From positions 49,228,001-49,292,000 of the forward strand of contig OZ024741.1 of assembly GCA_964016885.1 (NCBI GenBank): 64,000 bases of DNA. The letters run 5' to 3'. Source of the stretch: Eledone cirrhosa. Lineage: Eukaryota. Under the pieces are notes generated by a model that was not told the DNA's origin, did not search any database, and worked only from the letters and a program-made list of their open reading frames with translations. Below, one piece after another: positions 13,667 through 47,451 of the stretch; within the stretch, counting starts at the first letter, position 1; each line of letters starts with the position of its first letter. The translations under genes and the position numbers were made by a program.

Positions 13667-14578
13667 ATACATTATGAAGAGAGAAGAAACATTTAGATAT
13701 AATTAGTAATAAAATGTATCATACCTAAACTGTTCCTAAATTCCTCGACTACGTAGTTTCGTGGCATAAACAAAAACAATATATCAAAGATATAGAGTCC
13801 TTGCGAGGTCTGCCGACTTATCAAGAGGATACCTCATTTTACTAGTCTCAAGAACGCGTCTACACGACGTGAGAAAGAATCCCAAAAGGCGGAGGGGGAG
13901 ATAGTCACGCGATATAACGGTCGAGAAACAGAGCTAAGCCTCTTATATGTGTGTGTCCGCATGTATCTGTGTGTTTCTAAATATATTAATAACTCCCTCT
14001 GGTCGAGCAATCTTTGAAGTGTGGGGACAACTGGAAAGCTTCTATTACTCATACTTCTCGCCTTCTTCACTACCTCTTCTACGGCCTCGATATGAATACC
14101 CCCTCCGCCTCCGTGGTATTTTCTTCGTGGTTATAAGAGGCTTAGCTCTGTTTCTCGACCGTTATATCGCGTGACTATCTCCCCCTCCGCCTTTTGGGAT
14201 TCTTTCTCACGTCGTGTAGACGCGTTCTTGAGACTAGTAAAATGAGGTATCCTCTTGATAAGTCGGCAGACCTCGCAAGGACTCTATATCTTTGATATAT
14301 TGTTTTTGTTTATGCCACGAAACTACGTAGTCGAGGAATTTAGGAACAGTTTAGGTATGATACATTTTATTACTAATTATATCTAAATGTTTCTTCTCTC
14401 TTCATAATGTATTTTTAACTCTGATACTGGTTCAGTCTGGTTCAAACTGAATTGGTCTGTCCCAGTCATTCATTGAGCAACATCGGTGAAGTTGGCACCC
14501 TTAACTCACGGTTGGGTGCGGATGCATTCATGTATATATGTGTGTGTCCGCATGTATCTGTGTGTTTCTAAATATATA
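13667..14578. mobile_element. Short non-coding PLE-like element: ~280-bp inverted repeat, ~40-bp direct repeat, two U3A8 hammerheads
   Basis: Arms 13667-13947 and 14132-14412 appear identical. The direct repeat is 13945-13987 / 14537-14578. Both ends abut (TA)n. Confidence 0.8.
14250..14337 (+). ncRNA. Type I hammerhead motif with U3-A8 core and branched stem II
   Basis: TCCTC-TTGATAA-GT(C)GGCA...TGCCAC-GAAA-CTACGTAG-T-C-GAGGA, with a GUC cleavage triplet. The mirror copy is at 13742-13829(-). Confidence 0.7.
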
Positions 14579-14650
14579 TATATATATATATATATATATA
14601 TATATATATATATAAAAGATGAATATAAAATGAAAGTGCTATATATATAT

Positions 14651-15116
14651 ATATTGTTATACTTGGGGAGGGTCATATTTGTGTAATAATATTGCCAGAA
14701 TTAATAACAGAACACACTCACTGTTTGGTTGGTTTTCGCTTCTGTGTCTTTTATATTGGTTAATTTAATTTATTCCGGCCTCAATGTTACCATTGACTGA
14801 CCAACAGTCAAAAATACAGATACAATATAGACACAAACACATATATATAGTCTAACAGACTATATATATGTTAGACTATATCTGTTTGTGTCTATATTGT
14901 ATCTGTATTTTTTACCGTTGGTCAGTCAATGGTAACATTGAGGACGGAATAAATTAAATTAACCAATATAAAAGACACAGAAGCGAAAACCAACCAAACA
15001 GTGAGTGTGTTCTGGCAATATTATTACACAAATATGACCCTCCCCAAGTATAACAATATTTGTTTCGACACACGATTTCATATCAAAAACCTCGCAAAAC
15101 TAATTCATCGCCGTTA
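14651..15116. mobile_element. Fold-back fragment of a (TA)n-embedded element family
   Basis: Arms are 14651-14857 and 14869-15059. It is homologous to 63280-63480 and shares the terminus TGACCCTCCCMAAGTATAACAATAT with 47511-47765 and 60676-61168. Confidence 0.8.
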
Positions 15117-16286
15117 TATATATATATATATATATATATATATATATATATATTTAATACAATAACAGAGATAGCTTTAAGCTAAACTCTGACTGGCTAC
15201 CATCTCACTCAACAAACATTAGGATATACTTTAGTATAATCCCAATTTTGTGTTTGGGGTGCTAACTTTATGTATTTTGTGGAAAGCCAGTTGTATTATT
15301 TTATATGAGATATAATTAAAATTCAAATATATCTCTCTTTCCAAACAATTGTTTCATTATAAGTTTTCTACAAGTTGGGAGAATGTATCCGGTTTATGTA
15401 GAAGCCTACATAATTTTCTGTAAGAACATATGTAGGTGGGTACTTATAAATCATCAGTGGATGCCCTTCAAACTTTGATATAAGAAAAAATTTCTTACCG
15501 CAGTTATTTTTCGTGTCAGCTAAGTCGTCCCCTCACGCATCATAATGACCGCCAAATTTGAAATTCCAGCAGTCTTAGACTGAGGAATTTCACAGCGTCA
15601 CGAAGCGGAAAAGGGAGGCAATCGCGAAACACAAGAAAGTAAAATAATATACATGTGGGTTAATATAATATATATATATATATATATATATATATATATA
15701 TATATATATATATATATATATAGAGAGAGAGAGAGAGAGAGAGAGAGAGAGAGAGAGAGAGAGAGAGAGAGAGAGAGAGAGAGAGAGAGAGAGAGAGAGA
15801 GTTGATTCCACAACATATATGTGTGTATGTATACGAAGCATTGGGACATTTTTAACAGCCATGTTATTAAAATCGGCTTTTCCTGTGTCAGAAACGTTAA
15901 TACCCATCAGCTCCTGCAATCTCGGCTGCTCATAAAATAAAAACAAAAACAAAACCTAACAAAAAACACAAAAACAAAACAAAAACAGAGGCTATACGAA
16001 GCTGGGGTCATCTCGACCCAGCCAGACCAGAAGCAGGGTTAGAACCTATATTGAAATATCGGAAAGTCGATTTAAAACCTGCTTCCTAAACTACGAGATG
16101 ACCTTTAATATACTGAAAAGGTTACACAACTCCAACAACTGTCTGAACTCGAAGGCAGATTTTTTCAATTGCTGCCTCCACACTCACAAATTTATTTTAA
16201 TAAGCTGGAATATTCTACCTTCGCTTCGTCCCAATGAGTGGCATCCTGGGAGAATGACATTTATCATAGCCACATGTCGACCTACG

Positions 16287-16490
16287 CCATGTGAGTGAAA
16301 TTGGGCAGACAGAAACTGTTTGGAAGCCCGTCGGATGGATTGTACATGAAATTGAAAGGGACGGCCCAGTCACACACTGTCATGCTGAATCTGCTTGAGA
16401 ACTACTTTAAGTGTACAGGTGTCTGTGGAATGCTCAGCCACTACACGTTAATTTCATGAGAAGGATGTTCCGTTGATCGAGAAACCGGGT
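16287..16490 (+). mobile_element. Fragment of a second interspersed repeat (SINE-like)
   Basis: Shares blocks (GGCAGA..GAAAC, GCTGAATCT, GTGTCTGTGGAATGC) with the reverse complement of ~61915-62125. Confidence 0.5.
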
Positions 16491-44633: not shown

Positions 44634-45409
44634 TATATATATATATATATATATATATATATATATATATATATATATATATATATATATATATATATAT
44701 ATATATATACATATATATATTGTAAATAAACACTGGAGTGTTGAACGAGTTGAAATGTTTAGAAATGTAGAAAACCACGAACGCAGGAAAATAGCTGTGA
44801 GCACAGCTTCAGAAAATCTGGAAAATACCGCTACAGAAGAAGATCGAACTCTGTACCTCTCGAATTCCGACTGAGCTCTCTGTACCATTGATCTAAACTT
44901 TTGACAGTTATTGTCTTAAATAAAGCAAGCGGGTACCAATCGGTATCTTTGAAACGGCATGAGCTCAGCCGACGGGCATTAACTATTTACAATACATACA
45001 CTCTTCTTTGTCAAGTATAGAGTTTTTAGCTGAACATGGTCTTAGTAGTCGAAACTGGTGGCTCACAGTCTCTCGATATCTATCTATCTATCTATCTATC
45101 TATCTATCTATCTATCTATCTATCTATCTATCTATCTATCTATTTTTAAATTGCATTGGTGATAACATTTTACACGTTTTTATTGTATGTAAACTTCCCC
45201 CTTTGTATTTGTCCCCTTCTTTTGTGCCCCTGTGACTAATAAAGAAACATATCTATCTATCTATCTATCTATCTATCTATCTATCTATCTATCTATCACA
45301 CACACACACTCACACTCTCTTACACACACACACACACACACACACACATATATATATATATGTGTGTGTGTGTGTGTCTGTGTGTGTGTAGATTTATTTA
45401 TTATATATA

Positions 45410-45795
45410 GGGGTTGTGCTCCACCAGGACAATGCTTGACCACATTGTCTTTGGCTACCCACACAATGTTGCATGAACTTGGGTGAGATGCCTTGTCTCA
45501 TCCGCCATACTCCCCTGACATTGCGCCATCTAACACTCATTTGTTTTTGTCTCTGTAGAACTCTCTAAAAGGGAAACATTTAATGATTTAGATGGTGTTA
45601 AAACCCACTTAGAATACTTCTCCTCAAAAGCAACAGAGTTTTATGCCGATGGAATGTTTAAATTGCCTGGTAGGTGGACTAAAGTCATAGAAAACAATGG
45701 CAATTACTTTAATGAATAAAGATGAGAGTATGTTTAAAATGTCTTATCTTTTAATGTGCTTAAAAAAACGTTAAGAACTTCCGGACAACCTAATA
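45410..45795 (+). mobile_element. Mariner transposase C-terminal fragment and right TIR
   Basis: Reads HQDNA, HPPYSPDIAPS..HLF and FYADGMFKLPGRWTKVIENNGNYFNE*, and ends GAACTTCCGGACAACCTAA|TA. Confidence 0.88.
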
Positions 45796-47355
45796 TATAT
45801 ACATATATATACATATATATATATACATATTTATACACACACACACACACACACACATATATATATATATATATATATATATATATATATATATATATAT
45901 ATATATTCACACACACACGCGCGGGCGCGCGCGCACACACACACACACACACACACATATATATGAGAAAGGGGGATGAAGGAGAAAAATGAAGTACACA
46001 GACTCTTACAAAAGCGCACGAGAGATAAATATATTGCTATATATATATATATATATATATATATATATATATATATATATATATATATATATAGAGAGAG
46101 AGAGAGAGAGAGAGAGAGAGAGAGAGAGAGACAAGTTTGAAGGATACAGAGTGCGATAAAAAGAAATCTGGCAAGCGGATAGCAAAAACTAAATATAATT
46201 TATAGACAGGAAACCTCGCGAACCCCAAAAAAGAACCAACAACCAACAAAAATTGACCATGTGGCGAAGAAGGGTAGGCATAAGTAAGCATAGCACAATA
46301 CGATACATAATGTTGTGTGACGTCAGTGAGGTGAATGTTCGAGTTTATGAAACGTTTCTTTACTATCAGACCCACCAAGTTGGTGAGCCTCAGGTGATAT
46401 ATAAATTATTGTGACGATGGCTAAACTATCTCAGTTTGGCATCGTGGGAGTTCTCAGATATTTTATAATATCACTAAATATGAAAGCAGCGTGTAGATGA
46501 TAATAATTTCTTGCACTAGTGGTGGCAGGCGAGATCTGGGGTAAGGAAACAAAAAAAACAAAAAAACAAAGCAGGAGTAACTAACTGAACTATTTCAATA
46601 CTGGAACGAATAGAAGCTGAATGTAACTAAGAAACGTCACAAAAAAAGTGAAAAAAAAAAAAAAATAGAACAGAAAGAAAGATAAATCCCAAACCTCCCA
46701 CCCCACCCGAGGCATATAAAATCTTGGAAGTGACTTATTTTCAAATAGATAAATGTTAGACTGTTGGAGTTTTGATGGAAGACTTATATAGATTGATATA
46801 TAAAAGATAGATTAAAAGAGAGGAATAGTGAGGGAAAAGGTTAGGGGAGAGAGAGAGAGAGAGAGAGAGAGAGAGAGAGAGAGAGAGAGAGAGAGAGAGA
46901 GAGAGAGAGAGAGAGAGAGAGAGAGAGAGAAAGGAGCATCCTTCCATAGATAAATGGAACGAAAGGGTCTTTAGAAAAAGACAAAGTGACGAAATGTGCG
47001 CTAGAAAGACACTTATAAAGAAACAAAGATACAAAACCGAATCAATATGGCGAGTATGACGTATACATGAATGAATATATATATATATATATATATATAT
47101 ATATATATAAAACAAAGAAGGTGTGGTACGATACCTGGTGGACCATCACGCATCAGAGTACTCGATACCTTTTGTTCTTCAGGCCAGTTCAGCCCCCCCC
47201 CCCCCCGCCGCTATGAAGGAATTTAACCATGTATATGATATCCCAGATCATCGACCACTCCCCGTGACAGACAAGAAAAACAACTAATTTTTTGGATTAT
47301 TTGCTTTGCTTTTTTTGCTTTTTTGGTTTTTACTGCATACCCATATATGGACTGT

Positions 47356-47451
47356 ACCCCTTGATAATTTCAGCTAGATTCTCACTGTTCTAATACTGCT
47401 AGCTTAGTTCGGATCTAGCTGTCGAAACGGCCGGAGCTCAGCCGTCGAGGT
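47356..47451 (+). ncRNA. U3-A8 hammerhead motif (family C)
   Basis: ACCCC-TTGATAA-TTT-CAGCTAGATT...GATCTAGCTG-TC-GAAA-CGGC(CGGAGCTCA)GCCG-T-C-GAGGT. Other family copies have GGGGT as the 3' arm. Confidence 0.7.

What the first reader, a model, noticed from the sequence alone, without database searches (positions are those of the whole stretch)
14250..47451. Three apparently unrelated families use a compensatory U3-A8 hammerhead core (TTGATAA)
Seen: TTGATAA replaces CTGATGA at 14255-14261 (mirror copy at 13742-13829), at 34445-34451 (partner at ~33148-33154) and at 47361-47367. In each case it sits between a stem I arm and a stem II, followed by GAAA, stem III and UH. Established: C3 and G8 form a tertiary Watson-Crick pair, and U3-A8 preserves it and is an uncommon natural variant. 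Inference: the double change argues for selection on the catalytic fold. Standard CUGANGA searches would miss these elements. One motif lies in the pLTR of a coding PLE, which links the variant to an autonomous partner.
Basis: partly seen in the sequence, partly recalled or inferred. Interest (0 to 1): 0.8.

Follow-up and report, generated by a model that had tools for sequence, protein, structure and literature searches.

The report
Hammerhead core pair broken, then restored
Three families of jumping genes here carry a hammerhead ribozyme motif with a known, already published swapped core pair (U3-A8), but one of them also spread to over a thousand copies with that pair mismatched and likely restored it later, which suggests that these elements can multiply while self-cutting is weak or off.

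Summary
The motifs are real: type I hammerheads (HHRs) with a U3-A8 core in a 591-nt tandem retrozyme-like family (6,219 pattern hits, 13 non-U3), a minimal-HHR Penelope-like element (PLE) family (231 hits) and a Hydra-clade PLE family (5,753 hits). A fourth family has 6,657 hits, and U3-A8 made up 9 of 22 HHRs in 800 kb sampled blind. The variant is not new: UUGAUAA and a PLE-linked U3-A8 core are in print for Schistosoma (PMC4209133). In the Hydra family 1,186 of 5,753 copies carry a C3·A8 mismatch, and a small subfamily carries U3·G8. Trees of the ORF and the 3'UTR place C3·A8 as a grade on the main lineage between older and younger U3-A8 subfamilies (AU test p=2e-13 against one clade). During that phase the ORF was under purifying selection and the rest of the fold did not change. 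Likely reading: cleavage is not needed for insertion, as shown in vitro for another PLE, while the fold stays useful. Cleavage was not tested and no RNA data were available. Three of the five window copies are damaged.

The parts
13667..14577 (.). Family 1 insertion: one 591-nt non-coding unit (+) with an inverted 5'-truncated copy (arms 13667-13947 and 14132-14412), between (TA)n runs
   Evidence: 100% over 281 nt; direct repeat 13944-13986 / 14535-14577; tandem 591-597-nt spacing in loci
14250..14337 (+). Intact type I HHR, U3-A8 (core 14255-14261, GAAA 14319-14322, predicted cut after C14332)
13742..13829 (-). Mirror copy of the family 1 HHR, intact
34441..34480 (+). Family 2 minimal HHR, U3-A8, extra U after A9, 6-bp stem II; stem I damaged; lies in the inverted truncated copy
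33125..33160 (-). Family 2 HHR at the 3' end of the PLE remnant; lacks the 3' strand of stem II and GAAA
33491..34412 (-). Decayed RT thumb + GIY-YIG remnant of the family 2 PLE (frameshifts and stops; 49-61% aa to 58155-58910)
47356..47451 (+). Family 3 HHR (old subfamily of a Hydra-clade PLE), U3-A8; G10.1 changed to T and one stem I mismatch; predicted cut after C47446
47110..47465 (.). Family 3 insertion: inverted 'tail' (about 47110-47170) plus 5'-truncated 3' end, between (TA)n runs
   Evidence: 79-82% to L083
59540..59610 (-). Family 3 3' fragment (GAAA, stem III, cut site), core missing by truncation; similar fragments near 31280-31406, 40056-40190, 41140-41290
57264..59468 (.). Relative of family 2 with a canonical C3-G8 minimal HHR (cores at 59316 + and 57416 -) and an RT/GIY-YIG frame at 58155-58910; serves as the C3-G8 comparison
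36070..37345 (+). Second Hydra-type PLE (37-47% aa to the family 3 ORF) with a C3-G8 core at 36084 (its GAAA reads CAAA)

Best explanation
The sites are hammerhead motifs at the 3' ends of three separate Penelope-like element families whose majority core is U3-A8, and in the Hydra-clade family the main lineage likely amplified for a long stretch with a C3·A8 mismatch before a likely single-base return to U3-A8, so self-cleavage is likely not required for these elements to insert. Shown: motif structure, counts, core states by subfamily, the same two insertion ends (about 17 and 97 nt past the predicted cut site) in matched and mismatched copies, and purifying selection on the ORF and constancy of the fold in C3·A8 copies. 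Inferred: the element RNA is copied into (TA)n targets from start sites downstream of the ribozyme on uncleaved RNA; the 3-8 pair tunes an accessory, probably slow and protein-assisted cleavage; selection on that pair is weak enough to let wobble and mismatch states spread, which explains how U3-A8 can be reached in single steps and in several families. The fold is kept either for residual cleavage or for binding of the element's protein.
For: C3.A8 in 1,186 of 5,753 hits, G8 in 46. With all seven core letters free, 78 of 100 listed were U3-A8, 20 C3.A8 and 2 other (4,991 hits). Both arms of 10 of 10 inverted pairs carry C3. Trees built without the core letters: ORF 37 rows AU p=3e-5, 3'UTR 34 rows p=8e-4, ORF 40 rows p=2e-13. 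ORF variants shared among C3.A8 copies: 18 synonymous to 3 replacement, against 62 to 107 private (p=2e-5). In 67 independent C3.A8 insertions, inherited variants hit 0 of 42 core and stem sites and 8 of 39 loop II sites (p=0.002; 0 of 24 sites not fixed by the search pattern, p=0.02). C and T both occur at position 3 in contigs of public DNA runs. PMC11167929 (passages and part 2 of main text): single C3G or G8C mutants abolish cleavage of a PLE HHR but not insertion in vitro, RT starts at two internal sites, and cleavage needs the protein. PMC9901934 (passages): all single mutants in this core region had low activity.
Against: No cleavage or expression data (no RNA run listed). The activity of C3.A8 itself was not read in any paper; the papers that test it directly were not held. 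Conservation of the other core letters during the mismatch phase fits residual cleavage as well as no cleavage. No C3.A8 copy with an intact full ORF was found in 10 regions (longest frames 550 and 481 aa). Tree loci were chosen by core state, come mostly from one contig, and several trunk nodes have modest support; a 33-row tree on 450 nt of UTR, lacking the old subfamilies, showed C3.A8 as a clade. In PMC9901934 only the G3-C8 swap rescued activity, so U3-A8 may itself be weak. In families 1, 2 and 4 no mismatch lineage was seen.
Confidence: 0.62

Rival explanations
1. C3·A8 still cleaves well enough, for example with help from the element's protein or by C3 pairing with G7, so cleavage stayed essential throughout.
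For: All other core and stem sites stayed fixed in the mismatch phase. N7 is G in nearly all C3 copies. The Anolis PLE HHR is protein-assisted.
Against: Single changes at 3 or 8 abolished cleavage even with protein in that PLE (C3G, G8C). G7 predates C3 on the trees, so shared descent explains it. Predicted folding is worse for C3 copies: the hammerhead fold lies 2.2-2.8 kcal/mol above the ensemble against 0.4-1.4 for U3-A8 groups with 3 or more copies.
Confidence: 0.2
2. C3·A8 RNAs were dead on their own but were cut in trans by U3-A8 RNAs pairing through the palindromic loop III, or were mobilised as passengers.
For: Loop III is self-complementary in all subfamilies; PLE HHRs are proposed to act as dimers (PMC4209133).
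Against: The enzyme-strand sites (stem II, GAAA, U4-A6) were conserved too, which a pure substrate would not need; the ORF was under purifying selection; stem III has 5 pairs and is predicted to form within one molecule.
Confidence: 0.08
3. One reading: U3-A8 is a compensatory double change enforced by selection for catalysis, and unpaired states are only post-insertion decay.
For: Family 1: 13 of 6,219 non-U3, 1 of 100 listed G8. Family 2: 91 of 100 listed U3-A8, all A8. Family 4: 100 of 100. The young family 3 subfamilies are paired again.
Against: C3.A8 and U3.G8 are inherited subfamily states in family 3, not decay.
Confidence: 0.1

Closest known systems
U3-A8 minimal HHRs of Schistosoma mansoni Cercyon PLEs (Cervera and de la Pena 2014, PMC4209133)
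   Same: Same core variant, about 1,300 hits; the supplement lists UUGAUAA and a PLE-linked UUGAAAA. Family 2 has the same minimal layout: extra base after A9, G10.1-C11.1, palindromic stem III.
   Different: Here U3-A8 is in at least four families and two PLE groups. Families 1 and 3 have long stem II insertions and family 3 has a 5-bp stem III. No inherited mismatch state was seen in the parts read.
Natural U3-A8 hammerheads (Perreault et al. 2011, PMC3088659)
   Same: C3-G8 to U3-A8 covariation in several natural examples (section 8).
   Different: No retroelement lineage history and no intermediates in the section read.
Hydra clade PLEs (Craig et al. 2021, PMC8557442)
   Same: [quoted passage not shown]
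   Different: The paper reports canonical HHRs for the clade; this family has U3-A8, U3.G8 and C3.A8.
Non-LTR retrozymes (Cervera and de la Pena 2020, PMC7229834; Li et al. 2026, 10.64898/2026.07.22.740005)
   Same: Family 1 is non-coding, tandem, one type I HHR per unit.
   Different: Unit 591 nt, PLE-like inverted copies and (TA)n ends, U3-A8 core; circular RNA not tested; no autonomous partner found.
Poseidon PAc of Anolis (Frangieh et al. 2024, PMC11167929)
   Same: Two insertion ends downstream of the cut site; cleavage not needed for insertion in vitro.
   Different: Different clade, C3-G8 core; that evidence is in vitro, this is genomic history.

Membership tests
Type I hammerhead ribozyme | Core N3 U4 G5 A6 N7 N8 A9, G12 A13 A14, A15.1-U16.1, H17 between three stems, open at stem I | tested here: met
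   Descriptor hits for families 1-4; 22 motifs in 800 kb against 0, 0, 0 and 1 in four controls. Window copies at sites 2 and 3 fail singly.
Type I hammerhead ribozyme | Stems supported by covariation | tested here: met
   Family 3, 22 copies: 89.6% of cells paired, 3 stem II pairs with changes on both sides at subfamily level; slid controls 27-50%. Sequences are related, so this is not a probability. Not tested for families 1 and 2.
Type I hammerhead ribozyme | Watson-Crick pair between positions 3 and 8 | tested here: inconclusive
   Met by the majority in all families; not met by 1,186 C3.A8 copies and a U3.G8 subfamily of family 3.
Type I hammerhead ribozyme | Match to an Rfam hammerhead model | tested here: not met
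   No hammerhead family at E up to 10 for sites 1 and 3 and for intact family 2 copy L036; none among the 150 of 259 rows shown for the window.
Type I hammerhead ribozyme | Self-cleavage after H17 | not testable with these tools
   No assay; no RNA run listed.
Hydra clade PLE (family 3) | RWK, DKT, CxCX5C linker, CxxC and CxH, C-terminal GIY-YIG without CCHH | tested here: met
   Read in the L155 ORF against the paper's list; RWK appears as RWR. Pfam gave no hit.
Hydra clade PLE (family 3) | Short element inserted in (TA)n with tail and inverted copy | tested here: met
   3,118-nt tandem unit, slightly over the paper's 'generally <3 kb'; short and long ends in 18 of 20 regions.
Hydra clade PLE (family 3) | Placement in the clade by RT phylogeny with reference elements | not tested
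   No reference Hydra proteins were brought in.
Canonical C-terminal-EN PLE (family 2) | RT followed by GIY-YIG with CCHH, HHR at the 3' end | tested here: met
   Remnant matches 58155-58910, which hits Pfam GIY-YIG; ORF remnants near 10 of 30 family 2 loci. Penelope/Poseidon, Neptune or Nematis not resolved.
Non-LTR retrozyme (family 1) | Non-coding tandem units each with a type I HHR | tested here: met
   591-597-nt spacing, arrays of up to five listed; longest stop-free frame 138 codons around the L016 dimer.
Non-LTR retrozyme (family 1) | Circular RNA monomers in cells | not testable with these tools

The most novel reading that the evidence does not exclude
A genome-recorded walk of a ribozyme's catalytic tertiary pair: an autonomous Hydra-clade PLE lineage ran for several successive subfamilies and more than a thousand insertions with a crippled C3·A8 core, kept the rest of the fold, then re-formed U3-A8. 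This would be in vivo evidence that hammerhead cleavage is dispensable for PLE spread, and a natural series (U3·G8, U3-A8, C3·A8, rare C3-G8) of single-step intermediates in compensatory RNA evolution.
Probability: 0.45. Interest if true: 0.75.

Novelty: new variant of a known kind. Interest (0 to 1): 0.55.

Why it matters
What the hammerhead does for Penelope-like elements is an open question (PMC8557442 calls it unclear; PMC11167929 found it unnecessary in vitro). This family supplies natural, nearly identical RNAs that differ at the 3-8 pair, together with their copy numbers and order of descent, so cleavage rate can be set against real spread. It also shows how U3-A8 cores can arise one base at a time, and that CUGANGA-only counts would miss 12 of the 22 hammerheads sampled in this genome.

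Tried and rejected
DNA search of the own genome with site 1 returned nothing because common words are skipped; patterns were used instead. No RNA holder listed: no evidence either way. Autonomous partner of family 1: none found; Hydra ORF fragments near family 1 copies (L174, L235) are separated by (TA)n and read as nested insertions. Kinship of families 1 and 3: similar layout but no blastn match, so unproven. U3.G8 on the main lineage: a grade in the short HHR-region trees but a weak side clade in the ORF tree (87/74); not claimed. AT-biased mutation as the cause of U3-A8: private changes showed no such bias (C>T 0.43, T>C 0.66, G>A 0.56, A>G 0.45; noisy alignment). Assembly error in the C run: rejected (linked variants, both arms, public contigs; those runs may be the source of the assembly). 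UTR tree root on L102 is unreliable (long branch); only its unrooted shape was used. Relaxed census control crashed and was rerun. Earlier findings: none returned. Literature searches with no direct hit: 0 papers; 1 paper, not relevant. Host: the repeats recalled a cephalopod (recall only); passages of PMC13282606 hold no 'ribozyme'; the host was not determined.
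Full report
Observation. The heptamer TTGATAA lies at all five stated places. It occurs 12 times in the window, so only its setting counts. Site 1 (14250-14337) and its mirror are complete type I hammerheads and pass a strict descriptor. The two site 2 copies and the site 3 copy are damaged, but their families are intact. The window lies in a 3.0-Gb genome; the host was not determined. 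Hammerhead numbering and the role of the 3-8 pair are standard knowledge, confirmed in PMC4209133 and PMC3088659.

Family 1. A pattern with positions 3, 7 and 8 free gave 6,219 exact hits and 0 for the reversed control; 99 of 100 listed were TTGATAA. Only 13 hits are non-U3 and none of those is C3-G8. The unit is 591-597 nt, tandem, without a long frame, often with an inverted truncated copy, and ends in (TA)n. Relatives at 75-83% identity keep TTGATAA. It fits a non-LTR retrozyme by DNA criteria. No partner element was found.

Family 2. 231 hits; of 100 listed, 91 are U3-A8, 9 differ at position 3, and all have A8 (counted by eye). It is a minimal HHR with an extra U after A9, at the 3' end of an RT plus GIY-YIG element; 10 of 30 loci show ORF remnants. 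The window copy is frameshifted. A relative at 58155-58910, 49-61% identical in protein, has a C3-G8 minimal HHR, so U3-A8 arose within this group apart from family 3, whose ORF is 22% identical.

Family 3. The window's own subfamily has 244 hits; 89 of 100 listed are U3-A8, 5 U3.G8, 1 C3-G8, 5 other. The wider family has 5,753 hits. It is the 3' end of a 3.1-kb element with a 719-aa ORF that carries the Hydra clade marks listed in PMC8557442 section 11. Stem II covaries between subfamilies.

The unexpected result. 1,186 of the 5,753 hits have C3 with A8; 46 have G8, of which 7 are C3-G8 (one row cut short). C3 is no commoner with G8 than with A8 (p=0.47). One old subfamily has U3.G8 in 16 of 19 hits and A8 in none. 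With all seven core letters free, 20 of 100 listed hits were C3.A8 and only 2 had another core change. C3 is shared by both arms in 10 of 10 inverted pairs examined and is seen in contigs of public DNA runs.

Order of events. Trees left out the seven core letters. A 102-row tree of the HHR region (102 of 106 copies) gave a ladder: old subfamilies, U3-A8, a grade of C3.A8, then the youngest U3-A8. The ORF end (37 of 40 rows; 3 dropped as spurious or rearranged hits) and the 3'UTR (34 of 40 rows; those 3 and 3 short ones dropped) gave the same unrooted order, and rejected one C3 clade at p=3e-5 and p=8e-4. A second ORF tree (40 of 210 copies had enough ORF) gave p=2e-13. Two sporadic C3 copies fall elsewhere (L119, L117). 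An earlier tree that kept 33 of 86 rows and lacked the old subfamilies showed C3.A8 as a clade. The first U3-A8 copies after the grade share flanking variants on both sides with late C3.A8 copies, which fits a point reversion better than a swap. The loci were chosen by core state and come mostly from contig 1.

Selection during the mismatch phase. Among C3.A8 copies (9 of 10 regions held ORF), shared variants were 18 synonymous and 3 replacement; private ones were 62 synonymous, 104 replacement and 3 stops (p=2e-5). So the source elements made working protein. In 67 independent insertions, variants shared by 5 or more copies hit 0 of 42 core and stem sites and 8 of 39 loop II sites; leaving out sites fixed by the pattern, 0 of 24 (p=0.02). 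C3.A8 copies differ by 5.1% on average in the ORF against 3.5% (minimum 0.7%) for young U3-A8 copies, so they are older. No intact full-length C3.A8 ORF was found.

Mechanism. Insertions have one short and one long end, mostly 17 and 97 nt past the predicted cut site, in 10 of 10 C3.A8 and 8 of 10 U3-A8 regions. PMC11167929 found that such paired ends are two internal RT start sites, that single C3G or G8C changes abolish cleavage without affecting insertion in vitro, and that cleavage needs the protein. [quoted passage not shown] Predicted folding also disfavours the hammerhead fold in C3 copies. I infer that insertion uses uncleaved RNA, that cleavage is accessory, and that weak selection lets the pair change one base at a time. 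Why the fold stayed fixed is the open point: residual cleavage or protein binding.

How common. In 80 evenly spaced 10-kb stretches the descriptor found 22 motifs: 10 C3-G8, 9 U3-A8, 2 C3.A8, 1 G3.G8; four controls gave 0, 0, 0 and 1. The sample is small and neighbouring copies are not independent (7, 6, 2 and 1 locus-family units). A fourth U3-A8 family has 6,657 hits, 100 of 100 listed TTGAAAA.

Novelty. U3-A8 in PLE hammerheads is in print: PMC4209133 (parts 1-2 of 4 read; supplement file 2 searched, file 1 not searchable) and PMC3088659 (section 8). I found no report of an inherited C3.A8 lineage in eight searches, but the 2017 paper on PLE hammerhead variants (PMC5785218) and the main mutagenesis papers were not held, and their content could lower this claim. 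PMC8557442: passages, section 11, and a supplement term search that showed only its first places; its HHR file was not read. The 2026 bioRxiv preprint: parts 1-2 of 5; supplements closed. PMC7229834, PMC6765202, PMC13282606, PMC7151607: passages only.

Verdict. The finding as written is real but known. The lineage history of family 3 is the part worth following. Interest 0.55; new variant of a known kind.

Noticed in passing
L185:6942, L195; G000 pattern search: Fourth U3-A8 hammerhead family (core TTGAAAA, short stem II, UA cut site), 6,657 hits, PLE-like inverted pairs and two (TA)n ends; no ORF of its own found in 25 loci.
   Followed up: partly
L200, L203, L213: Tandem family with about 466-nt spacing and a canonical C3-G8 type I HHR with a 7-bp stem I; probably a second retrozyme family.
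   Followed up: no
window 1760-1800, 56920-56965, 41519, 60863/60982, 47703: Further canonical-core hammerhead-like motifs (CTGATGA or CTGAAGA); 1769 passes the descriptor, the others look decayed.
   Followed up: partly
L211, L220: C3-G8 hammerheads with a long stem II insertion, the same layout as families 1 and 3; possible canonical relatives.
   Followed up: no
L079, L086, L141, L235; window 59468-59610: PLEs of different families sit end to end in each other's (TA)n tails, which can mimic shared termini.
   Followed up: partly
L102, L332, L333, L334, L063, L338: A small G8 branch (U3.G8, one C3-G8) inside the old site 3 subfamily; may link to the next U3.G8 subfamily.
   Followed up: partly
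window 51800-54600 and 54531-55766: Long degenerate trinucleotide array (9-12-nt periods) followed by a second tandem array; both give long low-complexity frames.
   Followed up: no
window 3300-3500, 7640-7930, 8390-8770, 9870-10070, 22990-23450, 24750-25140, 31930-32100, 61280-61450: A dispersed repeat of about 150-250 nt in many copies, likely a SINE.
   Followed up: no
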